The notes under the pieces: generated by a model | Told to the model about the DNA's origin: nothing | The model's database searches: none | The model's input: only the letters and a program-made list of their open reading frames with translations | Part shown: in pieces, positions 7,454 through 58,211 of the stretch | Layout of the letters: the number at the start of each line of letters is the position of its first letter | Position numbering within the stretch: position 1 is the stretch's first letter | Origin: Patescibacteria group bacterium | Lineage (GTDB): Bacteria; Patescibacteriota; Patescibacteriia; UBA1558; GWA2-36-10 | Length of the DNA stretch: 64,000 nucleotides | Assembly (NCBI GenBank): GCA_041665545.1 | Contig: JBAYIQ010000001.1 | Span: 137,911-201,910, forward strand | Reading direction: 5' to 3' | Translations under genes and position numbers: made by a program

Positions 7454-8425
7454 ATGGATAATTTTTGGGAAAAACTTAAACCACCCATTCTGACCACCAC
7501 GCCAATGGCGGGAATTACTGACTCGGCCTGGCGCCAACTCTGCAAAAAATGGGGTGCTGATGTGGTTTATACTGAATTCGTGTCGGTCGATGCTCTGTTT
7601 TATGATAGCAAAAAAACCTTGCAAATGCTGGAGTACAAAGCTAGTGAACAGCCAATTGTTGCCCAAATCTTTGGCAAAAGAAGCGATTTGTACCCCAAGG
7701 CCGCTAAACTAATTGAAAAACTCGGTTTTACTGGCGTGGACATAAATTTCGGCTGTCCAGCCAAAAAAGTAGCTGGCCATGGCGGTGGTATATGCCTACT
7801 CCGCGATATGGATACTGTCAAAAAAATAGTAGCCAATACTATTGAAGCAGTGACAATTCCAGTTTCCATAAAAACTAGAATTAGCTTGAATGCTGTGTCT
7901 GGATCTCCAGAAAAGGGAAAAATTACGGCCGTAGATTTATTAGATGCCTTGCAGGATTGTCCCCTAGCCGCGATTATTGTCCATGGACGCACCTATGAAA
8001 CTCCTTTTGCTGGCCCTGTTGACTTAGAAATGTTAAAAAATTTGCGTGAAAAATTCACTAAAGGAATATTTTTAATCAATGGCTCTTTTCAAAGTGTAGA
8101 ATCAGTAGTCAGTGATTTACAATACACCCAAGCTGATGGCATTGCCTTGGCTAGATCGCTCTATGGTAGGCCATGGATATTCAAACAAATCAAAGATTAT
8201 TTATTGACTGGGCAGTATCAAGAAATTACTTGGCCGGAAATAAAAGCTACTGCTATTGAGCATGCTCACCTGCTCTACGAAAATAAAGGGCCAAAAGGTT
8301 TTCAAGAAATGCGTAAACATTTATTATTTTATGCCAAAGGCCATCCTCAGGCCAGCTCACTCCGATACAGTTTGGTAAGAGTAAACACTCCACAAGAAGT
8401 AGAAAAAATATTCTCGGAAATATAA
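7454..8425 (+). CDS. dus: tRNA-dihydrouridine synthase
   Basis: PMAGITDSAWR, INFGCPAKKV, catalytic Cys region GGGICLLRD. Confidence 0.85.
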   Translation: MDNFWEKLKPPILTTTPMAGITDSAWRQLCKKWGADVVYTEFVSVDALFYDSKKTLQMLEYKASEQPIVAQIFGKRSDLYPKAAKLIEKLGFTGVDINFGCPAKKVAGHGGGICLLRDMDTVKKIVANTIEAVTIPVSIKTRISLNAVSGSPEKGKITAVDLLDALQDCPLAAIIVHGRTYETPFAGPVDLEMLKNLREKFTKGIFLINGSFQSVESVVSDLQYTQADGIALARSLYGRPWIFKQIKDYLLTGQYQEITWPEIKATAIEHAHLLYENKGPKGFQEMRKHLLFYAKGHPQASSLRYSLVRVNTPQEVEKIFSEI

Positions 8426-12762: not shown

Positions 12763-14079
12763 CTAGGCGGCTTCCGCACCCTCGGCAATGTAGGGTGCGA
12801 TCGACCCGAGCTGTCTGTCCACCAGGACACGCAACTCGCTGCGACCAGCGAAATCGGTCTTAGCCACAGCATCGACGGCCAGTTTGACGGCCGAGCCGAT
12901 ATCGGGATTATTGAGAGCGGTGACCAGAGGCATCAGCTCAGCCAGACGAGCATCGCCCTTGCCCTCGGCAGTGATCACTGCGATCCTCTTGTCGAGGGCG
13001 GTCTTGACGACATCGATACGCTTGGCCGCCAGCTCGTTCAGTCGAGCCTGAACCTCTGGGCTGGGTGTCGGGTCCTCAATCAGAACACTCTTTACCTTAT
13101 AGCCCGAAACGCTTTCCAGCCGGGCAATGGCCTCATCCCAGTTCGCGTCTTCAAAGACGCCGCCGACTTGGATCTTCTCCAGAGTTTGACCCTTAAGGAG
13201 AACCCGAAAGTCAGCACCGAAGATTTCACTCGCATACTTGACCAAGCCGGCATCAGTCCGCACCTCGGGCGGAGCAGACCAATAGGCATTCAGATTCTCC
13301 GGCCCATCAAGAATGGGGATGAACTTAACATTTACATCTCCCCCGACCTCGATATCGGGTTCACCATCAAGACCTGGGATCTTGCCACCAAGAGTAGGTA
13401 TTTTCTCAGTGACACAAGAGAGTTGTAAACCACGTCTTTCCAGGACGACATTGAATTCGAGACCTGGGGCATTCCTAGGAATCTTCGTCCGGTGGAAACC
13501 GTTGTAGAAGACATACTTGTCGAACATCCACCAGGCGTGAAAGCAACGGCGTCCGAACAGTTTCGGCGTCCATAGTTCCTGCTCCGGAACCTGAATGTTC
13601 ATGATGGCCATCGTAGATCCCGTGGCCAACGACCAAAAAATCACGGTCACCATGTGACCAAATGTCAGGATACCCAAGGTCAGGCACACGCCAGTCACAA
13701 TTGTCGAATAGAATGCCCAGGTGTCTCGCTTGTTGCCAAGCCACGGCCGCGGTTTGTAGGTGTAGTAGGCCTGTAGCGCCGTAATAGCCGCAACGAGCAG
13801 TGCCAACACCACACGAAACCACGGGAAATTGTGGGAGACCTCCTTACCAGCTGTCTTTCCAACTGTCACAGCTGTCTTTACGTCCTCAACTACAGCCGAC
13901 GGCGCAAAAAACAGCCAGTGATGGTTCCAGGAAGCGGCCAGCACTCCCACAGCCAGCAAGGCCGTGGTAATGATCGCTCTCCACCCCACCTTCAGCTTTG
14001 TGCTGTTATTGACCAGCGCGGCAACAACGGACACGATGATCGCAATCACCGCATCAAGGACGAACTTGTTCTGAAACAT
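12763..14079 (-). CDS. high-GC membrane protein with C-terminal SPFH (band-7/prohibitin)-like domain (438 aa)
   Basis: AAAGGAGGGG RBS 2 nt before ATG; 4-5 N-terminal TMs; SPFH-like core (FGRR...PGLEFNVV...) and Ala/Glu-rich tail (AVITAEGKGDARLAEL); G+C-rich vs flanks. Confidence 0.75.
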   Translation of the reverse strand: MFQNKFVLDAVIAIIVSVVAALVNNSTKLKVGWRAIITTALLAVGVLAASWNHHWLFFAPSAVVEDVKTAVTVGKTAGKEVSHNFPWFRVVLALLVAAITALQAYYTYKPRPWLGNKRDTWAFYSTIVTGVCLTLGILTFGHMVTVIFWSLATGSTMAIMNIQVPEQELWTPKLFGRRCFHAWWMFDKYVFYNGFHRTKIPRNAPGLEFNVVLERRGLQLSCVTEKIPTLGGKIPGLDGEPDIEVGGDVNVKFIPILDGPENLNAYWSAPPEVRTDAGLVKYASEIFGADFRVLLKGQTLEKIQVGGVFEDANWDEAIARLESVSGYKVKSVLIEDPTPSPEVQARLNELAAKRIDVVKTALDKRIAVITAEGKGDARLAELMPLVTALNNPDIGSAVKLAVDAVAKTDFAGRSELRVLVDRQLGSIAPYIAEGAEAA

Positions 14080-14112
14080 GACCCCTCCTTTGGGGTAATA
14101 GGTTAACGATTG

Positions 14113-14141
14113 ACTATCTATACATTTCCAAGACTTGTCAA
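14113..14141 (-). promoter_or_regulatory. putative promoter of cassette 1 (TTGACA-N17-GATAGT)
   Basis: tgtcaa 14136-14141 and actatc 14113-14118 on plus strand, 17-nt spacer. Confidence 0.45.
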
Positions 14142-14388
14142 CGAACTTGCCAAAAACCTATGTTTTGTGACAATATATTATTATATCACTTTTTTCTATT
14201 TTAGTCAAGAAATAGCTGCTCCCCAATATTTGACACCAGGGCTTGTCAATTTAATACTAAAGTTTGATGTAACTACGTCTCGCACGCCAAAGCAAACTTT
14301 AATTAATAAATTAAATTTTTTTATAGGCCACTATCCCTCCTTAAGTGTCAAGCATTGGATTTTAACGCGACGGCGTGTCAATATTTTT

Positions 14389-29712: not shown

Positions 29713-29741
29713 TTGACAGGTTTTTAATTATATGCTATCAT
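29713..29741 (+). promoter_or_regulatory. rnpB promoter TTGACA-N17-TATCAT (TGc extended -10)
   Basis: TTGACA 29713-29718, TATCAT 29736-29741. Confidence 0.55.
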
Positions 29742-29769
29742 ATTTTATTGATCTTCGAAATAACGAGTT

Positions 29770-30103
29770 GGGGGGTGTTGGGACGCTCGAGAAGTCCTGG
29801 GGACACCTGCTAGTTGTGGTCAGGGCCCGAACTGTTTGGGCTCGCTGTAATCCCGCAAAGGTTAGCGGGTGCAGTTTATCAGACCACGGATGGCAATCCT
29901 GATCCTTGTCTGTTGGGACAATGGGGATGGACCCGTCTTATCGTCGTCCCGAGGCCTCGGGCGACCAGCTGGCAGTGCCGATTTTTGAAAAACGTTCCCC
30001 ACAGACGGTGACGTGAAGCGCTCACGTTTCCTAGCGGGGATATCCTTGGCCAGGAGAGAATACAGGCCTCGGCTTACCTTCAGGACTTGTCCTGGCACCC
30101 CCC
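29770..30103 (+). ncRNA. rnpB: RNase P RNA (bacterial type)
   Basis: P1 pairing GGGGGGTGTTGGGAC / GTCCTGGCACCCCCC; CR-I-like CGAGAAGUCCUGGGG; CR-V-like GAGAAUACAGGCCUCGGCUUAC. Confidence 0.75.
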
Positions 30104-30119
30104 GTGTTCCTACCGATGA

Positions 30120-30160
30120 GGAGTCTTTGTCTACACCATGGCAAGACTCCTTTTCTTTTT
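30120..30160 (+). terminator. rnpB terminator
   Basis: GGAGTCTT ... AAGACTCC stem followed by TTTTCTTTTT. Confidence 0.7.
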
Positions 30161-30220
30161 GTTTAAAATAAAGAAATACCGCCGTCGAACCAGTGGGTTC
30201 GATGGCGGTACGAAATGTCC

Positions 30221-30412
30221 CTACACCTTCATGCAGGGAGCGTGAGGTGTGTCGCGATGCAAGCGCAGCTTCTCGGGAGTGATGTTGTTCCCGCACTCCG
30301 CCATACTGCACTTGACGCAATGCTCGCTCTTGAGGTGCCGAAGCCCCCTTTCCGAACGCGGAAGCGTTCTCCTGTTCGCATTGTTCCCCTTGGTGACCTG
30401 CTTCTTGCCCAT
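30221..30412 (-). CDS. high-GC small basic Cys/His-rich protein (63 aa)
   Basis: CAAGGAGGGA RBS 3 nt before ATG 30412; MGKKQVTKGNNANRR...HCVKCSMAEC...HAPC; own promoter and hairpin terminator (30180-30213). Confidence 0.55.
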   Translation of the reverse strand: MGKKQVTKGNNANRRTLPRSERGLRHLKSEHCVKCSMAECGNNITPEKLRLHRDTPHAPCMKV

Positions 30413-30460
30413 GGGTCCCTCCTTGAGATACATGATCACCAACGAAAGAGCAGTCTATAT

Positions 30461-30489
30461 ATTATGTATAGAAATTATTCTTTTGTCAA
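30461..30489 (-). promoter_or_regulatory. promoter of cassette 2 (TTGACA-N17-CATAAT)
   Basis: tgtcaa 30484-30489, attatg 30461-30466 on plus strand. Confidence 0.5.
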
Positions 30490-34946: not shown

Positions 34947-34994
34947 AATTAAATATTATTTTACCATATTTTGGCCTTAAAGAAAAATTTGACA

Positions 34995-35368
34995 AAAAGA
35001 AAACAGGGAGGACTTTGCCTGATGGCGCGATCCTCCCTGTGCGTGGTACAAGCGGCCATTCGGCCGCGCGGCGTTCGGGCTTGGCCAAACATCCAGACTG
35101 CACCTGTCCAGACCCACTTGTAGACAACGGCGAATTCCGCTGTAGACGAATGGTCGTTGACCTTAGGGCTCCTAGCCGCAATACCCGATATCGGTGGGCT
35201 CCGCTGGCTCGGTATCAGCCAGAACAACGACTATGGCGTTGTTATGAGAAATATGTGGAGGCCCAAGCGCTTGGTATTTGGCCAGCTGACCAGCCGAACC
35301 CGCCAAGGGAAGAGCCGAACAGCGGTCTAGCCGTGGCTTTGGGCCCCCTTGAAAAAAGAGCGTACTAA
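34995..35368 (-). ncRNA. GC-rich structured RNA of unknown class (about 375 nt)
   Basis: Own promoter (35375-35403) and terminator CAGGGAGGA...UCCUCCCUG+U-run (35004-35039); many local hairpins; no ORF with RBS. Confidence 0.6.
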
Positions 35369-35374
35369 GGGGAA

Positions 35375-35403
35375 ATAGTAGCATAATATCTAATTTGTGT
35401 CAA
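35375..35403 (-). promoter_or_regulatory. promoter TTGACA-N17-TACTAT (TGc extended -10) of the 35-kb RNA
   Basis: tgtcaa 35398-35403, atagta 35375-35380 on plus strand. Confidence 0.55.
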
Positions 35404-35457
35404 TAACAACAAAAAACTGCCAAAATTAGCAGTTTTTTAGATGACAACCAATATTTA

Positions 35458-50735: not shown

Positions 50736-50836
50736 ACAAAAAAACGCCCTGCAATTTCTGTGGGGTGTTTTTTATTTTAAACAAAATTAAGAACGCGTCC
50801 CCGAAGAAACGCGTTCTGGAAAGAACAGGCCTACTT

Positions 50837-51253
50837 TCACTTGCTCACACTGGGAAAATGCGGGTCACGGTACTCGTCATTGTCGTCTTTGACAACGAAA
50901 GGAGAAACATCCTCCAAGCGCAACTCGGTGGTGCAGATGAAGGGTGACGACTCGACGACACGCGGTGGTTGAAACAGATTGGCCTCAGGAGTCAGCTTAG
51001 AGGCCAAAAAGTCCCGAATCCTCCTATGCCAGAGCAAGCCCAATGGCTTCTTGTTCTTCCTTTGCCAGACCAACTCCAAGCGCCAAGGCCTTTCCTCAGC
51101 CGTGATCGACACCTCCAAGCCACGATGGCTGATGTACTTCATAATCTCCGGCAACAGTAGCCCAAGCTGCTGACCCAGATGCCTCCTGACAGCCAAGGTG
51201 TTGACATGACGACCGTTAGCGAACTTAATGTCAGCTCTTTTCTTACCGACCAT
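50837..51253 (-). CDS. high-GC hypothetical protein (138 aa)
   Basis: CAAGGAGGAA RBS 6 nt before ATG; own promoter; hairpin AGAACGCGT...ACGCGTTCT terminator (50790-50818). Confidence 0.6.
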   Translation of the reverse strand: MVGKKRADIKFANGRHVNTLAVRRHLGQQLGLLLPEIMKYISHRGLEVSITAEERPWRLELVWQRKNKKPLGLLWHRRIRDFLASKLTPEANLFQPPRVVESSPFICTTELRLEDVSPFVVKDDNDEYRDPHFPSVSK

Positions 51254-51303
51254 GAGCTATTCCTCCTTGAAGGTTCAAGTGCCCCAAAAAATGGGAATAT
51301 GAT

Positions 51304-51332
51304 AACATATAATATTTATCCCCTCTTGTCAA
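51304..51332 (-). promoter_or_regulatory. promoter of cassette 3 (TTGACA-N17-TATGTT)
   Basis: tgtcaa 51327-51332 on plus strand. Confidence 0.45.
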
Positions 51333-51382: not shown

Positions 51383-51507
51383 CTCGTGTCCCTCGACTCA
51401 CTCCGTTCGCTCGGGACACTCGATTCGCAGGAATGAGAATGGTCGGAGGTGCGATAAAGCACCGTAGACCACGAGTGAGTCTTTTGCAAAGCAAAAGGCG
51501 AATCGAG
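51383..51507 (-). repeat. tRNA-trailer structured element, copy E3 (fused to CCA of tRNA-Lys)
   Basis: 125 nt; near-identical to E1 over the tRNA-proximal ~70 nt; followed by AACCCACUGGGUU+U7 terminator (51347-51372). Confidence 0.7.
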
Positions 51508-51584
51508 TGGTGCGCCCAGTAGGATTCGAACCTACGACCGTTTGCTTAAAAGGCAACTGCTCTACCAGGCTGAGCTATAGGCGC
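51508..51584 (-). tRNA. tRNA-Lys (anticodon TTT), CCA encoded
   Basis: GCGCCTA/TGGGCGC acceptor, loop CTTTTAA, T arm GTAGGTTCGAATCCTAC. Confidence 0.9.
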
Positions 51585-51666: not shown

Positions 51667-51695
51667 TTGACAAAAATAAATAAATATGATATAGT
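51667..51695 (+). promoter_or_regulatory. promoter of cassette 4 (TTGACA-N17-TATAGT, TGa extended -10)
   Basis: TTGACA 51667-51672, TATAGT 51690-51695; 5' UTR hairpin TCCTAATCAGA/TCTGATTAGGA. Confidence 0.55.
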
Positions 51696-51800
51696 AACGA
51701 ACTTGTTCTTTATAAACTCCTAATCAGAATTTTGTCCAGCAAATTGCCTGATAAAGCTCTGATTAGGAAACTATCACTTCTCTGAACTGGAGGACTTACC

Positions 51801-52700
51801 ATGGATTACCCGCGGAACTCGGTCTGCATCTATCACAGTGCGGACAATGACGGCGCTTGCAGTGCGGCCATCGCCAAGTTGGCGGCTCGTGTCAGACTGA
51901 TCCCCTGGAATTATGGACACCCCATACCCTGGGAGAGAATACCCGTCGGCGCTACGATCTTTGTGGTCGATCTGCTGCTCACCAGCCAGAACGACAACAG
52001 TGGTTTCCAGGACATGGAGCGCCTGCGCAAGATCGGTAAGCTCGTCTGGATTGACCATCACGACAAGGCCATCAACGACGCCAAAGTGTTGGGTTTGGCC
52101 TATGATGGCATCCAGCGAGTTGGTCAGGGCGCTTGCGCTTTGACCTGGGAATATTTCTTCCCCAACAAGCCCATGCCCGAAGCAGTCCGGCTGATCAGTA
52201 ACTTCGATGTCTTTGACCATAGGGAGGTAAAGACAGTCCATTTCCAGTACGGCTTGCGTGCTTGCAATGCCAAGCCCTGGATGGACATTTGGAAAGATCT
52301 TCTTAAGCCACCCTTCCAAAGCGATGCTCTGGTCAACCAGCTGGTCAGTGATGGTATCCCCATCACCAAGTACCTGACCTTGGAATTCGCCCGCTACATG
52401 CGAGTCTGTGGCTTCGAGACTATTCTCGACGGGCACCGTGCCATTGCGGTGAATCGTGCTCTGGTCAACAGCCAGATCTTCGAATCTGTACACAACCTCG
52501 AAGACTATCCGTTGCAGATGTACTTTTACTGGAGCTCTGACGGCTCATGGAAGGTGAGCATGCGTTCGCCCGACGGTCGCGTGAACTGTGCAGAACTCGC
52601 AGCCAAGTACGGTGGTGGCGGACACAGCCGAGCAGCCAGTTTCGTGTGCCAGGAACTGCGCTTTGAACTCAAAGGGCGACCTGACGCCGATCCTGACTGA
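51801..52700 (+). CDS. high-GC DHH/DHHA1-family phosphoesterase (NrnA-like, 299 aa)
   Basis: YHSADNDGACS (DHH motifs I-II), WIDHHDK (DHH), YGGGGHSRAAS (DHHA1 GGGH); CTGGAGGAC RBS. Confidence 0.85.
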   Translation: MDYPRNSVCIYHSADNDGACSAAIAKLAARVRLIPWNYGHPIPWERIPVGATIFVVDLLLTSQNDNSGFQDMERLRKIGKLVWIDHHDKAINDAKVLGLAYDGIQRVGQGACALTWEYFFPNKPMPEAVRLISNFDVFDHREVKTVHFQYGLRACNAKPWMDIWKDLLKPPFQSDALVNQLVSDGIPITKYLTLEFARYMRVCGFETILDGHRAIAVNRALVNSQIFESVHNLEDYPLQMYFYWSSDGSWKVSMRSPDGRVNCAELAAKYGGGGHSRAASFVCQELRFELKGRPDADPD

Positions 52701-52719
52701 GTAACGAGAAGTTGATCCT

Positions 52720-52762
52720 GACCCCGGCTAGTGGCAACACTGGTCGGGGTCTTAAATTTGTT
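52720..52762 (+). terminator. terminator of cassette 4
   Basis: GACCCCG ... CGGGGTC stem then TTAAATTTGTTT. Confidence 0.6.
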
Positions 52763-55774: not shown

Positions 55775-55805
55775 AAAATCTATAGCTATTTTTAATACGG
55801 GTTAA

Positions 55806-55834
55806 ATATTAACAAAGATTAGCAATTGTGTCAA
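55806..55834 (-). promoter_or_regulatory. rplU promoter TTGACA-N17-TAATAT
   Basis: tgtcaa 55829-55834, atatta 55806-55811 on plus strand. Confidence 0.5.
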
Positions 55835-55853
55835 TAATACTGAATACACGCCA

Positions 55854-55882
55854 TTGACAAGATATGAAATGTGTGATATAAT
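55854..55882 (+). promoter_or_regulatory. promoter of cassette 5 (TTGACA-N17-TATAAT, TGa extended -10)
   Basis: TTGACA 55854-55859, TATAAT 55877-55882; 5' UTR hairpin CGTGGT/ACCACG. Confidence 0.6.
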
Positions 55883-55958
55883 ATAAAATCGTGGTTAATT
55901 TCTACCACGTGCACCTTAGCAAGACACAAGGTAAATATGGCCAATGGAGGTCCTTGAA

Positions 55959-56693
55959 ATGGAAAAGACCGAAAAGACCGCCTTTGCTGTTCTGCACATG
56001 AGCCGTCACGAATCCAGCTCGCCCCAAGCCAACTATGGCCTGGGAACACTGGGTCCCATGGACTACCGCGGAATCCCGGTTCGCTACCACCCCAATTCCT
56101 TCATGCGTGACTCCGGTTACCGCATGCTGGAAATCCAGCTCCCGAAGAACCAGAACGAAGCGGGAGTCGCGATGGCTGTCATGCACGCAGGTCAGATTCG
56201 GGGAGCCATCAGTTCCCTGCAGGATCAGCTCAACAGTCTGACACCGGAAAAGATCTCCCACTACAACCTGATGATCAACGAACTGCTTCGCAAGGGCTAC
56301 CTGATGCACAGCCAAGTCCTCTACTTCAAACCCTGGCAATCCGGTCTCGTGGCCAAGTACGGCTGGGGCATCAATGGCTCTGGTGGCATGGTCATGTTCG
56401 GACAGAACAACTTCGGACAGAGCTTCGGAGTACAGGCCGGACACCAGCTGGTGCAGGTGGTCTTCCGACCCACTCCGTACGCCGACGGACTGATCTGTCG
56501 CTACGGCTGGGGCATCACCGTATGCCAGCCGGAAAGCATCAAACGTGTGCTGAGTGGTCTGCGCAAGCAGCTCGACAACGCCGTGTTCTTCCAGGAGCAC
56601 GGCTGTCTACTCGAAGACTTCGATCGGCCGAGTCTGGCATGCCGACTGATCGCCCGTCAGGCGACCCACGCGTGCCAGCAAACCACCGCATAG
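55959..56693 (+). CDS. high-GC hypothetical protein (244 aa) with duplicated YGWGI motif
   Basis: GGAGG 8 nt before ATG 55959 (tracked ORF starts 55944); VAKYGWGINGSGG and ICRYGWGITVCQ; no family recognised. Confidence 0.65.
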   Translation: MEKTEKTAFAVLHMSRHESSSPQANYGLGTLGPMDYRGIPVRYHPNSFMRDSGYRMLEIQLPKNQNEAGVAMAVMHAGQIRGAISSLQDQLNSLTPEKISHYNLMINELLRKGYLMHSQVLYFKPWQSGLVAKYGWGINGSGGMVMFGQNNFGQSFGVQAGHQLVQVVFRPTPYADGLICRYGWGITVCQPESIKRVLSGLRKQLDNAVFFQEHGCLLEDFDRPSLACRLIARQATHACQQTTA

Positions 56694-56721
56694 CGAGCAA
56701 CTGCTTGCTACGGTGACAACG

Positions 56722-56768
56722 ACAGGACATTTTCTGACGCCAAGCGTCTGAAGGTGTCCTGTTTTCTT
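56722..56768 (+). terminator. terminator of cassette 5
   Basis: ACAGGACA ... TGTCCTGT stem then TTTTCTT. Confidence 0.7.
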
Positions 56769-56771
56769 ATA

Positions 56772-56800
56772 TTGACAATAGCTATATTATATGCTATAAT
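56772..56800 (+). promoter_or_regulatory. promoter of cassette 6 (TTGACA-N17-TATAAT, TGc extended -10)
   Basis: TTGACA 56772-56777, TATAAT 56795-56800. Confidence 0.6.
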
Positions 56801-56858
56801 ATTAAATGTACCCCAGGATTCTAGTCTCGGGTTGTTCATTTCCAAGGAGGGATTTCTC

Positions 56859-57257
56859 ATGAGTCCGAAACAGCTTGCTGCCATCCCGTTCTGCATTTTG
56901 ACCGTAGTTGCCATGTTCTTATGGGTTGCCGGTCGTCCCACTGGCAAGCCCGACACAACGCGACTCTTCTCAATTGGGACTGATGCCCATCAGGTTCCGT
57001 GTGGTGACATCGGCTACGATGCCACCTTCCGCTACTATGCCGGAAACGACACGGCGGGCGTGACGGTAGCCAATCTCAATCCCGGGCTCGTAACGATCCA
57101 TCTCATGGATCGCCTGAGCAGGGATATCTACGGACGCAAACCCGTGCGGATCAACGGTGATCAGGCCAACCTGGAGATCATCAACAACGCCACCAATGAG
57201 GTGATTTGCCGCTGGCAGATCACCATCGATCGTCAGGTCGGTGTTGCCACCCGCTGA
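56859..57257 (+). CDS. high-GC small membrane-anchored/secreted protein (132 aa)
   Basis: CAAGGAGGGA RBS 7 nt before ATG 56859; N-terminal hydrophobic helix AAIPFCILTVVAMFLWVAG. Confidence 0.65.
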   Translation: MSPKQLAAIPFCILTVVAMFLWVAGRPTGKPDTTRLFSIGTDAHQVPCGDIGYDATFRYYAGNDTAGVTVANLNPGLVTIHLMDRLSRDIYGRKPVRINGDQANLEIINNATNEVICRWQITIDRQVGVATR

Positions 57258-57297
57258 GTACGCCCTCCTCCGGTCAGGCCACAAATGCCCGACCAAA

Positions 57298-57342
57298 ACT
57301 CGTCGTCCATATCTTTTGGATCAAGCGACGAGTTTTCTTTTT
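57298..57342 (+). terminator. terminator of cassette 6
   Basis: ACTCGTCG ... CGACGAGT stem then TTTTCTTTTT. Confidence 0.7.
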
Positions 57343-57399: not shown

Positions 57400-57990
57400 C
57401 TAAGATTTAACTATTATACAACGACCAGTAAAACCGGCCTTAAATTTTTCTAGTTCTATAAATTTATATTGCCAATTATAGTCAGGGATTATAGAAGTAT
57501 GATTAACATAAAACCCTTTTATATTTTCTATATTACCCTCAAATCCTACAATAAGAGCTAAATGGCCTCCAAATCTTTTCCAGAAAAAAATTCTTTCCCT
57601 GAGTGGTTTATAATCTTCGAAAGCCCATTTGATTGAAATAATTGGTAGACAATTTTGCTTTAATGCCTCGCCTAGTTGAACAGAATCTACATTGCACTGG
57701 GTCGTTGCCTGAAAACCATACTCTTGAGCCAAACGAACTAACCCGCCATGACTCCACCCGGAAGAATCTTTATAGGCACCAAACTCAATACCTTTTTTAA
57801 TATATTCTATTATTGATGGTGAAAGGGGTTTAGCTTGCATTGCGAGAAATCCATCTATTGCCATTTTAAGGCACAAAATACCACACGAAGATTTTTCCTA
57901 ATATTCAGCGTCCTTAGAACTCTTAAAACCGAGCTCCTGCCATTTAGACAAATCCCACTTTTGTGAATAAAATGGCACTTCTATTTTCAC
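57400..57990 (-). pseudogene. C39-like cysteine peptidase with an in-frame TAG (57898-57900)
   Basis: GTG 57990: VKIEVPFYSQKWDLSKWQELGFKSSKDAEY*EKSSCGILCLKMAIDGF...; both halves in one frame; stop lies just before the catalytic SCG motif. Confidence 0.6.
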
Positions 57991-58087: not shown

Positions 58088-58139
58088 GAATGGTCGTAGA
58101 CCACGAGTGAGTCTTTTGCGAAGCAAAAGGCGAATCGAG
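58088..58139 (-). repeat. truncated tRNA-trailer element, copy E4
   Basis: GAATGGTCGTAGACCACGAGTGAGTCTTTTGCGAAGCAAAAGGCGAATCGAG = E1/E3 proximal module with its internal hairpin deleted. Confidence 0.65.
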
Positions 58140-58211
58140 TGGTGGGCATAAGAGGACTTCCGCCTCCGCCCCTCACTTTGTTCGGGGCTATGGCGGACAG
58201 GCGAACCTCTG
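58140..58211 (-). pseudogene. orphan tRNA 3' fragment (T arm + acceptor + CCA) with GC-rich hairpin inserted in the T loop
   Basis: AGAGGTTCG + 42-nt insert (CCTGTCCGCC...GGAGGCGG) + AAGTCCTCT TATGCCCA CCA; no D or anticodon arm upstream. Confidence 0.55.

What the first reader, a model, noticed from the sequence alone, without database searches (positions are those of the whole stretch)
55854..57342. Two back-to-back high-GC cassettes encoding unknown proteins (244-aa YGWGI-repeat protein plus 132-aa membrane-anchored protein)
Cassette 5 runs promoter 55854-55882, ORF 55959-56693, terminator 56722-56768. Cassette 6 follows only 4 nt later (promoter 56772-56800, ORF 56859-57257, terminator 57298-57342). 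Each is separately promoted and terminated even though they are adjacent and co-oriented. The 244-aa protein has an internal duplication signature (VAKYGWGINGSGG / ICRYGWGITVCQ) and no motif I can assign. The 132-aa protein has one N-terminal helix and a probable beta-rich ectodomain. A soluble protein paired with a small membrane or secreted partner is a common layout for toxin/immunity, effector/chaperone or abortive-infection pairs. Nothing here proves that.
Basis: inference. Interest (0 to 1): 0.6.

Follow-up and report, generated by a model that had tools for sequence, protein, structure and literature searches.

The report
Self-contained GC-rich gene cassettes in Patescibacteria
Two adjacent orphan genes in an AT-rich ultra-small bacterium each carry their own strong promoter and terminator, are gained or lost as whole units, and have kept a foreign-looking GC-rich composition over long evolutionary time; what they do is still unknown.

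Summary
The window is a Patescibacteria MAG. At 55854-57342 two co-oriented units each have a perfect extended -10 promoter, a 5' hairpin, a Shine-Dalgarno site, a GC-rich ORF (GC3 0.74 and 0.68; window median 0.36) and a strong terminator. Independent assemblies carry the same locus.

Both ORFs code for protein. g244 belongs to a six-cluster orphan family that always lies between rplU and murE. It is a tandem duplication of a ~100-residue beta-barrel-plus-helix module with no fold match. g132 is a single-pass, N-terminally anchored membrane protein.

They are not an obligate pair. A sister lineage keeps g132 alone, and the deletion is bounded by the repeated promoter module, as in PeSL shuffling of T4-type phages. 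Distant g244 homologues nevertheless always neighbour some small single-pass membrane protein.

The high GC is not decaying. Polarised substitutions in g132 and the neighbouring 138-aa cassette gene are balanced (50 AT>GC, 46 GC>AT). No GC-rich donor, phage or plasmid homologue exists.

Nothing supports toxin/immunity specifically. The best reading is moron-like accessory cassettes in a hyperplastic chromosomal array, probably conflict-related.

The parts
55854..55882 (+). Promoter of cassette 5: TTGACA-17-TATAAT with TG extension. It lies within a 37-nt module (55853-55889) that is repeated at 56771-56807.
55890..55909 (+). 5'-terminal stem-loop of the cassette-5 leader (CGUGGU...ACCACG). Pairing is kept in L004 through a compensatory G-C to A-U change. 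The rest of the 76-nt leader is almost invariant between the window and L004.
55946..55950 (+). Shine-Dalgarno GGAGG, 8 nt before the ATG at 55959. This favours the 244-aa start over the 249-aa start at 55944.
55959..56693 (+). g244 ORF. It encodes a basic (pI 9.1) soluble protein made of two homologous ~100-residue beta-barrel-plus-helix modules (about residues 6-94 and 116-208). GC is 0.58 and GC3 is 0.74. It is a member of a six-cluster orphan family.
56358..56373 (+). First copy of the exact 16-nt repeat TACGGCTGGGGCATCA (motif YGWGI). This copy corresponds to the family-wide ARYGxG motif.
56502..56517 (+). Second copy of the 16-nt repeat (second YGWGI). It lies in a lineage-specific 7-residue insert and is absent from distant homologues.
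56721..56768 (+). Intrinsic terminator of cassette 5: a 43-nt hairpin at -28.2 kcal/mol (z -7.45) followed by a U-tract.
56772..56800 (+). Promoter of cassette 6: a perfect extended -10 consensus. It is nearly identical to the promoter that drives g244 in L004 and to the single promoter left in L005.
56812..56831 (+). 5' stem-loop of the cassette-6 leader. Pairing is kept in L004 and L005 through compensatory changes (CCC/GGG versus CCU/AGG).
56846..56851 (+). Shine-Dalgarno GGAGGG, 7 nt before the ATG at 56859.
56859..57257 (+). g132 ORF. It encodes a single-pass membrane protein with an N-terminal signal-anchor (residues 6-24) and a ~100-residue C-terminal domain with two invariant cysteines. 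GC is 0.57 and GC3 is 0.68.
57295..57342 (+). Intrinsic terminator of cassette 6: hairpin at -17.5 kcal/mol (z -4.8) followed by a U-tract.
55802..56770 (+). The unit that is missing from the sister lineage (L005, L014, L015). It comprises the cassette-5 leader, ORF and terminator plus one promoter copy.

Best explanation
These are two autonomous, monocistronic accessory-gene cassettes. They belong to a hyperplastic cassette array that a clade of Patescibacteria keeps between rplU and the murE/dcw cluster.

Anatomy (shown). Each cassette has five parts. They are an extended -10 sigma-70 promoter of the type this genome otherwise puts in front of GC-rich islands without a credible ORF; a leader with a 5' stem-loop; a strong Shine-Dalgarno site; a GC-rich ORF; and an intrinsic terminator.

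Turnover (shown by comparison; mechanism inferred). The terminator-promoter junction modules are direct repeats. Recombination between them removes or adds one whole cassette and leaves a single chimeric promoter. This is how PeSL modules shuffle orphan genes in T4-type phages.

Products (shown). g244 is a basic cytoplasmic protein built from a tandem duplication of a ~100-residue beta-barrel-plus-helix module, in a family with no known relatives. g132 is an N-terminally anchored single-pass membrane protein with a cysteine-pair C-terminal domain that is probably outside the cell.

Relationship (shown). The two can be separated. However, g244-family genes always neighbour some small, fast-evolving single-pass membrane protein.

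Function (inferred, about 25-30% likely). g244-type proteins act at the inner face of the membrane through interchangeable small anchors. They would form a conflict-type accessory module, such as exclusion of phage or foreign DNA or interaction with the host surface. The known analogy is moron-encoded superinfection-exclusion proteins.

Composition (shown). The GC-rich composition is held at its own equilibrium. It is not a fading trace of recent transfer. The force that holds it there is unknown.
For: Anatomy. Extended -10 promoters with at most 1 mismatch occur 6 times against 0.06 expected. All six sit at the 5' edge of a GC island.

Coding status: GC3 > GC1 > GC2 (0.74, 0.61, 0.40). dN/dS is 0.47 and 0.26. 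Family homologues run full length at 27-31% identity. AlphaFold2 on 6 sequences gives pLDDT 74 and pTM 0.73.

Conserved locus: distant homologues lie between rplU and murE in L007, L010 and L013. Each gene there is GC-rich (0.48-0.63) in flanks of 0.24-0.39 GC (L009 and L012 are short contigs with no flank). In L007 and L013 each gene has its own promoter and terminator. The family tree agrees with the L21 and MurE trees.

Cassette turnover: L005, L014 and L015 lack exactly window 55802-56770. They carry L004's cassette-5 promoter fused to the cassette-6 leader. L21 identity places L005 next to L004 (99% against 93% to the window), so this is a loss. Promoter modules are 35-38-nt direct repeats in all four loci examined. 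The PeSL model is from PMC2839356.

GC equilibrium: polarised changes in g132 and the 138-aa cassette gene are 50 AT>GC against 46 GC>AT, implying an equilibrium GC of 0.55-0.59. Native neighbours show 86 against 87 pooled; the three larger genes (recR, dnaB, speA) imply 0.36-0.43, while ybaB and rplU rest on 5-6 changes each (rplU nominally 0.72).

No donor: only 5 hits among 1.84 billion representatives (the query's own cluster plus four distant ones), all from this family. Nothing was found in phages, plasmids, IMG/VR or JGI contigs.

Tandem duplication. Membrane topology.
Against: No transcript data exist, so the promoters, terminators and monocistronic status are consensus predictions only.

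The functional inference rests on analogy and gene neighbourhood alone. There is no fold or family match.

The membrane partners fall into three groups with no detectable similarity to one another: g132, the L007/L009/L012 family and the L013 119-aa protein. The recurrent adjacency could therefore simply reflect what this hotspot tends to collect.

Only one clean loss event was seen for this cassette, and no mini-circle or recombinase was identified.

The family has only 6 clusters, so the structure model and the half-against-half comparison rest on shallow alignments. Three of the five AlphaFold2 models had pLDDT below 53.

The substitution polarity counts are small and parsimony-based. g244 itself could not be polarised because the third lineage lacks it.
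Confidence: 0.5

Rival explanations
1. The two genes form a toxin/immunity or abortive-infection pair. g244 would be a cytoplasmic toxin or effector, and g132 its membrane immunity protein or sensor partner.
For: The layout is a soluble protein plus a small membrane protein. dN is 5-25 times that of neighbouring genes. g132 alone in L005 and L014 could be an orphan immunity gene. A small membrane protein lies next to every g244-family gene.
Against: The two genes have separate promoters and terminators. The partner proteins in other lineages are not related to g132. No match was found to any toxin, antitoxin or defence model in Pfam, PADLOC, PHROGs or NCBIfam. g244 has a consensus constitutive promoter and no secretion or delivery domain. 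No catalytic-fold match was found.
Confidence: 0.12
2. This is an ordinary, recently acquired islet from a GC-rich donor, such as the bacterium's host, a phage or a plasmid. It happens to sit behind strong native promoters, and its composition is simply not yet ameliorated.
For: The GC3/GC1/GC2 profile is typical of a genome of about 58-60% GC. Cassettes are present or absent between close relatives. The DHH cassette nearby resembles jumbo-phage DHH phosphoesterases.
Against: No homologue exists in any GC-rich genome, phage or plasmid. Homologues at 27-31% identity occupy the same locus in genomes whose L21 is only 55-56% identical, and they are still GC-rich. Polarised substitutions in g132 and the 138-aa cassette gene are balanced rather than GC>AT biased.
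Confidence: 0.15
3. These are lineage-specific envelope or cell-division accessory proteins. They would be vertically inherited core genes of this clade next to the dcw cluster, and GC-rich for expression reasons.
For: The position next to murE-ftsI-rsmH-mraZ is conserved across the clade. The family tree agrees with the L21 and MurE trees. The products are membrane-anchored and possibly membrane-associated.
Against: g244 is lost in a sister lineage with no replacement at the locus. dN/dS is 0.26-0.47 against 0.02-0.11 for neighbours. The partner genes are not homologous across lineages. Truly highly expressed core genes such as rplU are AT-rich here.
Confidence: 0.1
4. The regions are not protein-coding. 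They would be GC-rich structured RNAs, or chance ORFs in GC-rich DNA, or a chimeric assembly.
For: Long antisense ORFs exist, for example 232 aa on the minus strand. The same promoter type drives GC islands that have no credible ORF.
Against: The codon-position GC gradient and the third-position excess of substitutions fit this frame or its wobble-sharing antisense frame. The orientation of promoter, SD and terminator selects the + strand. Protein-level family conservation and a confident structure model support coding. No Rfam match was found. The locus was assembled independently in at least 3 data sets.
Confidence: 0.02

Closest known systems
PeSL (promoter-early stem-loop) modular shuffling in T4-type phages phi1/RB49 (Arbiol et al. 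2010, PMC2839356)
   Same: Orphan ORFs are flanked by repeated modules made of a stem-loop terminator and a strong sigma-70 promoter. A related genome lacks one ORF and retains a single chimeric module. The region is hyperplastic and rich in orphan genes.
   Different: Here the array is in a cellular chromosome between housekeeping genes, not in a phage genome. The repeat similarity is about 35-38 nt rather than about 100 nt. Mini-circles are not shown. The cassettes are strongly GC-shifted relative to the genome.
Phage morons (HK97 gene 15 type; Cumby, Davidson & Maxwell 2012, PMC3594210)
   Same: Each gene is an independent transcription unit with its own promoter and terminator. GC content differs from the neighbours. 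Units are present or absent between otherwise syntenic relatives. Small membrane proteins are typical cargo (gp15 is a superinfection-exclusion protein).
   Different: There is no prophage context: no phage, integrase or transposase genes lie within +/-10 kb. The family has been resident at one chromosomal locus across deep divergence. The composition is at equilibrium rather than a recent-transfer signal.
Integron gene-cassette arrays
   Same: Both are a tandem array of single-gene, mostly orphan cassettes at one chromosomal site, with cassette-level gain and loss.
   Different: Integron cassettes lack promoters, end in attC sites and depend on an adjacent IntI integrase. Here every cassette has its own promoter and terminator, and no integrase gene is nearby.
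Type II toxin-antitoxin and polymorphic toxin/immunity pairs
   Same: Both are two small adjacent co-oriented genes, fast-evolving and accessory.
   Different: These genes are not co-transcribed and not obligately co-occurring. They have no homology to known toxin, antitoxin or immunity families.

Membership tests
Phage moron | Own promoter and own terminator flanking a single gene | tested here: met
   Both units have a perfect extended -10 consensus promoter and a strong hairpin plus U-tract. This is prediction only; no transcript data exist.
Phage moron | [quoted passage not shown] | tested here: met
   GC is 0.57-0.58 against about 0.34 in the flanks. GC3 is 0.68-0.74 against a median of 0.36.
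Phage moron | Extra DNA relative to otherwise syntenic relatives | tested here: met
   The g244 unit is absent from L005, L014 and L015, which are otherwise syntenic.
Phage moron | Located in a phage or prophage genome | tested here: not met
   The flanks are argS, dnaB, ybaB, recR, rplU, murE, ftsI, rsmH and mraZ. No phage or integrase Pfam hits lie within +/-10 kb. No relatives occur in phage collections.
PeSL-type modular shuffling | Repeated stem-loop-plus-strong-promoter modules flanking orphan ORFs | tested here: met
   Promoter modules are 35-38-nt direct repeats at 73-83% identity in the window, L004, L007 and L013. Where a cassette precedes the module, a terminator hairpin lies just upstream of it.
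PeSL-type modular shuffling | Indel bounded by the modules, with one chimeric module left behind | tested here: met
   L005 carries the cassette-5 upstream context and an L004-type cassette-5 promoter, joined directly to the cassette-6 leader.
PeSL-type modular shuffling | Excised cassette mini-circles | not testable with these tools
   This needs junction PCR or raw-read analysis.
Integron cassette array | Adjacent IntI tyrosine recombinase and attI site | tested here: not met
   No integrase-family Pfam hit on any called gene within +/-10 kb.
Integron cassette array | Promoterless cassettes that end in attC sites | tested here: not met
   Every cassette has its own consensus promoter. The only 3' inverted repeats are terminator hairpins followed by U-tracts.
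Toxin-antitoxin / toxin-immunity pair | Co-transcribed bicistronic unit | tested here: not met
   A -28 kcal/mol terminator and a consensus promoter lie between the two ORFs.
Toxin-antitoxin / toxin-immunity pair | Consistent co-occurrence of the two families | tested here: not met
   g132 occurs alone in L005, L014 and L015. Distant g244 homologues pair with membrane proteins unrelated to g132.
Toxin-antitoxin / toxin-immunity pair | Homology to a known toxin, antitoxin or defence family | tested here: not met
Recently transferred genomic islet | Homologues in a donor of matching composition | tested here: not met
   An exhaustive HMMER search of 1.84 billion representatives found only the six same-locus Patescibacteria clusters.
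Recently transferred genomic islet | Ongoing amelioration (GC>AT excess) | tested here: not met
   Cassette genes (g132 and the 138-aa gene) show 50 AT>GC against 46 GC>AT changes. The counts are small and parsimony-based, and g244 itself could not be tested.
OB / S1-like nucleic-acid-binding fold (for g244) | Significant structural superposition on an OB or S1 barrel | tested here: inconclusive

The most novel reading that the evidence does not exclude
Some Patescibacteria maintain a chromosomal, recombination-shuffled array of self-contained expression cassettes, a cellular counterpart of phage PeSL/moron shuffling. The GC-rich composition of these cassettes is actively maintained over deep time.

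The maintaining force would be specific to these transcripts. Candidates are protection of the mRNAs from AU-directed RNases, biased gene conversion driven by frequent cassette exchange, or adaptation of the genes to expression in, or interaction with, a GC-rich partner cell.

Under this reading the g244 and membrane-anchor proteins would be a new class of fast-evolving conflict or host-interface module.
Probability: 0.18. Interest if true: 0.85.

Novelty: new variant of a known kind. Interest (0 to 1): 0.6.

Why it matters
Patescibacteria are ultra-small, mostly episymbiotic bacteria. Their lineage-specific genes are almost entirely uncharacterised, and how they gain accessory genes is poorly understood.

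This locus shows a concrete and testable mode of gene turnover: whole promoter-to-terminator units are exchanged at repeated regulatory modules. That mode was previously described only for phage genomes.

It also gives a clear exception to the usual rule that atypical composition means recent transfer and decays with time. Here a GC-rich family stays GC-rich at one locus in AT-rich genomes, with balanced substitution flux measured in g132 and the 138-aa cassette gene.

The cassettes use textbook sigma-70 signals. They should therefore be directly expressible in surrogate hosts, which makes two orphan protein families experimentally accessible.

Tried and rejected
Sequence family searches:
- Pfam, PHROGs, PADLOC and NCBIfam on both proteins and on partner proteins gave nothing.
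- PDB sequence searches with single sequences and with profiles gave nothing significant.

Structure:
- Single-sequence AlphaFold2 of g244 failed with pLDDT 36. The 6-sequence model was usable.

Nucleotide and translated searches:
- blastn and tblastn against phages and plasmids gave no match for either gene.
- Scans of IMG/VR and JGI metagenome contigs for both families gave nothing. The genome-contig scan recovered only L004's contig.

Homology between g132 and the small membrane proteins beside distant g244 homologues was rejected.

Rfam on the cassette region and on the other GC islands found only tRNAs.

The 5' leaders as significant structured elements: z-scores were not significant, and only local hairpins with a few compensatory changes were seen.

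Literature searches found no description of GC-rich cassettes in Patescibacteria.

Considered and rejected: a synthetic construct or chimeric assembly (independent assemblies carry the locus), an integron (no integrase, no attC), and a prophage (no phage genes nearby).
Full report
**1. What is there**

The window comes from contig JBAZSO010000001.1 of a Patescibacteria MAG, GCA_041662385.1. Overall GC is about 40%.

At 55854-57342 there are two co-oriented units with the same five-part anatomy:
- Promoter: a perfect TTGACA-17-TATAAT with a TG extension, at 55854-55882 and 56772-56800. The window holds 3 perfect matches against 0.01 expected by chance. The third drives tRNA-Lys.
- Leader: 76 nt and 58 nt, each beginning with a stem-loop.
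- Ribosome-binding site: GGAGG or GGAGGG, 8 and 7 nt before the ATG.
- ORF: 244 aa and 132 aa.
- Terminator: hairpins of -28.2 kcal/mol (z -7.45) and -17.5 kcal/mol (z -4.8), each followed by a U-tract.

GC rises from about 0.30-0.35 in the flanks to 0.55-0.62 inside the ORFs and falls back in the promoter between them.

The same sequence was assembled independently from SRR6484324 (L003, identical). An 89%-identical version lies in MAG GCA_964540095.1 (L004) with both ORFs intact. This is not an assembly artefact.

**2. Are the ORFs genes?**

Yes, on four lines of evidence:
- Codon-position GC is 0.61, 0.40, 0.74 for g244 and has the same shape for g132. The nearby GC islands without credible ORFs have a flat profile.
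- Between the window and L004, third positions carry the excess of changes. dN/dS is 0.47 for g244 and 0.26 for g132.
- An exhaustive HMMER search of 1.84 billion representatives found four further full-length relatives of g244 at 27-31% identity, and they align end to end.
- With that 6-sequence alignment, AlphaFold2 gives pLDDT 74 and pTM 0.73. The single sequence gave only pLDDT 36.

**3. The proteins**

g244 is soluble (maximum Kyte-Doolittle 0.96) and basic (pI 9.1). The model has a five-stranded beta unit (residues 6-73), a helical hairpin (77-111), a second beta unit (115-187) and two C-terminal helices.

The two halves of the family alignment match each other (hhalign local probability 92%, E 7e-7 over 68 columns). 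The protein is therefore a tandem duplication of a ~100-residue module.

They are an exact 16-nt DNA repeat at 56358-73 and 56502-17, also present in L004. The first copy is the family-wide ARYGxG motif. The second lies in a 7-residue insert found only in this lineage.

No family or fold could be assigned:
- Pfam, PHROGs, PADLOC, NCBIfam and PDB sequence searches were empty.
- Foldseek against PDB and BFVD gave nothing below E 1e-3. The weak top hits were mostly S1/OB-fold proteins with TM at most 0.26.

g132 has one N-terminal hydrophobic segment (residues 6-24, Kyte-Doolittle 2.47) and no obvious cleavage site or lipobox. Its ~100-residue C-terminal domain has two cysteines that are invariant in all three known versions. 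It has no relatives beyond 79-82%-identical orthologues.

**4. Context in relatives**

All distant g244 homologues with enough flanking sequence lie at the same locus. It sits after ybaB-recR-rplU and before murE-ftsI, in L007, L010 and L013.

Their genes are also GC-rich (GC 0.48-0.63, GC3 0.57-0.86). Where flanking genes are present (L007, L010, L013) those flanks have 0.24-0.39 GC; L009 and L012 are short contigs made up almost entirely of cassette genes. In L007 and L013 each gene again has its own extended -10 promoter and terminator. L013 carries three such cassettes in a row.

Identities in the g244 family are 28-32% between the window clade and the others, and 35-46% among the others. 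This parallels L21 (55-56% and 67%) and MurE (60-64% and 68%). The simplest reading is long residence at this locus with very fast protein evolution.

Next to every distant homologue there is a small protein with one N-terminal membrane segment: 140, 125, 148 and 119 aa. Three of these are related to each other. None is detectably related to g132. L009 also carries a distant paralogue of g244 downstream.

**5. The two genes are separable, and cassettes move as units**

In L005, L014 and L015 the locus reads rplU, then a g132 orthologue, then the next gene. g244 is missing. tblastn finds no remnant of it on L014 or L015, and window 55802-56770 is the missing piece.

The alignment of upstream regions shows how L005 is built. 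It carries the cassette-5 upstream context and a promoter almost identical to L004's cassette-5 promoter, joined directly to the cassette-6 leader.

L005's L21 is 99% identical to L004's and 94% to the window's. The absence is therefore a loss, produced by recombination between the two promoter copies.

Promoter modules are 35-38-nt direct repeats (73-83% identity) within the window, L004, L007 and L013. This is the pattern described for PeSL modules in T4-type phages. There, recombination between repeated terminator-plus-promoter modules deletes or inserts orphan ORFs and leaves one chimeric module (PMC2839356).

The nearby DHH cassette (51667-52751) behaves the same way. It is absent from L004 and L014. 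In the window it begins right after the TTGACAAA that in L004 belongs to the dnaB promoter.

**6. The compositional anomaly is maintained**

Five ORFs in the window are GC3 outliers at 0.64-0.74, against a median of 0.36 and an interquartile range of 0.32-0.42. They encode the 438-aa, 138-aa, DHH, g244 and g132 proteins.

Extended -10 consensus promoters with at most 1 mismatch occur six times against 0.06 expected. Every one sits at the 5' edge of a GC island. Four precede these ORFs (the 138-aa cassette has a weaker promoter) and two precede islands with no credible ORF.

The usual explanation would be recent transfer from a GC-rich donor. Three results argue against it:
- No homologue exists outside this locus in any collection searched.
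- The family is GC-rich in genomes whose core proteins are only 55-65% identical.
- Substitutions polarised on the L004 and L014 branches are balanced in the cassette genes g132 and the 138-aa gene (50 AT>GC, 46 GC>AT). This implies an equilibrium GC of 0.55-0.59, equal to their present GC. Native neighbours are also balanced when pooled (86 against 87); recR, dnaB and speA imply 0.36-0.43, whereas ybaB and rplU have too few changes to estimate.

The counts are modest and parsimony-based, and g244 itself could not be polarised because the third lineage lacks it. Still, they show no sign of amelioration. What maintains the GC content is unexplained.

g132 is also about equally diverged among the three lineages (dS 0.36-0.54). 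Adjacent native genes place L004 and L014 close together (dS 0.08-0.23). This hints at allele exchange or old polymorphism at the cassette.

**7. Mechanism and function**

Shown or directly read from sequence:
- the cassette anatomy;
- coding status;
- the tandem duplication in g244;
- the membrane anchor of g132;
- the conserved locus;
- the unit-wise loss bounded by promoter repeats;
- the compositional equilibrium, measured in g132 and the 138-aa cassette gene.

Inferred:
- that the signals work as promoters and terminators;
- that recombination between the modules is the general route of cassette turnover;
- that the g244 family works with a small membrane anchor.

The functional guess has about 25-30% likelihood. 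It is a conflict-type accessory module, for example exclusion of phage or foreign DNA or a host-interface function. It rests on fast evolution, accessory distribution, moron-like packaging and the precedent of moron-encoded membrane exclusion proteins (PMC3594210).

The weak OB/S1 resemblance and basic pI make nucleic-acid binding by g244 a lead, not a result.

**8. Comparison with known systems**

The cassettes work like phage morons and PeSL-flanked orphan genes. They fail membership of both because the context is a cellular chromosome with no phage genes.

They are not integron cassettes. Each has its own promoter, there is no attC site and no integrase is nearby.

They do not meet toxin-antitoxin criteria. 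They are not co-transcribed, not obligately co-occurring and have no homology to known families.

Literature searches found no description of such cassettes in Patescibacteria.

**9. Verdict**

Novelty: a new variant of a known kind. These are moron/PeSL-like cassettes in a cellular CPR genome, encoding two orphan protein families, with a maintained GC disequilibrium.

Interest: 0.6.

Noticed in passing
window 12763-14208 (- strand): Another GC-rich cassette. The promoter TTGACT-17-TGATATAAT lies at 14208..14180. The ORF at 14079..12763 encodes a 438-aa protein with multiple membrane segments and has GC3 0.64. No Pfam, PADLOC or NCBIfam hit.
   Followed up: partly
window 50790-51332 (- strand): GC-rich 138-aa cassette: ORF at 51253..50837, terminator at 50817..50790, GC3 0.67. 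It is conserved in L004 and L014 but evolves very fast (dN 0.13-0.20 against at most 0.03 for neighbours). No family hit.
   Followed up: partly
window 51667-52751 (+ strand): GC-rich cassette encoding a 299-aa DHH/DHHA1 phosphoesterase, with full-length 23-30% identity to jumbo-phage DHH proteins. It is a clean indel, absent in L004 and L014. It is inserted immediately after the -35 TTGACAAA of what is the dnaB promoter in L004.
   Followed up: partly
window 25979-26350 (-), 29725-30476 (+), 34954-35413: Three GC-rich islands (0.51-0.52 GC) with a flat codon-position GC profile and no credible ORF. Two are preceded by the same extended -10 promoter type (26341..26313 and 29713-29741). No Rfam family matches at E<=0.1. 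They may be unrecognised structured RNAs, such as divergent RNase P, tmRNA, SRP or 6S, or new RNAs.
   Followed up: partly
window 19593-19666, 51437-51510, 58095-58142: A conserved 48-75-nt GC-rich element (…GTAGACCACGAGTGAGTCTTTTGCRAAGCAAAAGGCGAATCGAGTGG). At 19593-19666 and 51437-51510 it abuts the 3' end of minus-strand tRNA-Thr and tRNA-Lys. The 58095-58142 copy lies about 80 nt beyond tRNA-Val. It is also present in L004. Its function is unknown.
   Followed up: no
L005 383-446 (also L014 about 7799-7912): A ~64-nt perfect-stem inverted repeat (GGGGTTCACCCCGTGAAAT…ATTTCACGGGGT) is inserted between rplU and the cassette promoter in the sister lineage only. It looks like a MITE-like insertion.
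   Followed up: no
window 57400-57876 (- strand): The AT-rich gene to the right of the cassettes has a weak Peptidase_C39_2 match (E 0.003). It is replaced by an unrelated 205-aa gene in L005 and L014, and by an alr-containing segment in L004. The right edge of the array is therefore also a rearrangement point.
   Followed up: partly
L004 / L006 (GCA_964540095.1, CAZILH010000006.1): The record is titled 'uncultured Gammaproteobacteria bacterium'. However, the contig is syntenic and 84-94% identical to the Patescibacteria MAG across more than 10 kb. The taxonomic label looks wrong.
   Followed up: no
window 55910-55958: The cassette-5 leader downstream of the 5' hairpin is almost invariant between the window and L004 (1 change in about 50 nt), which is more conserved than the ORF. 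It can pair CAAGG with the CCUUG that lies between the SD and the ATG. This may be a translational control element.
   Followed up: no
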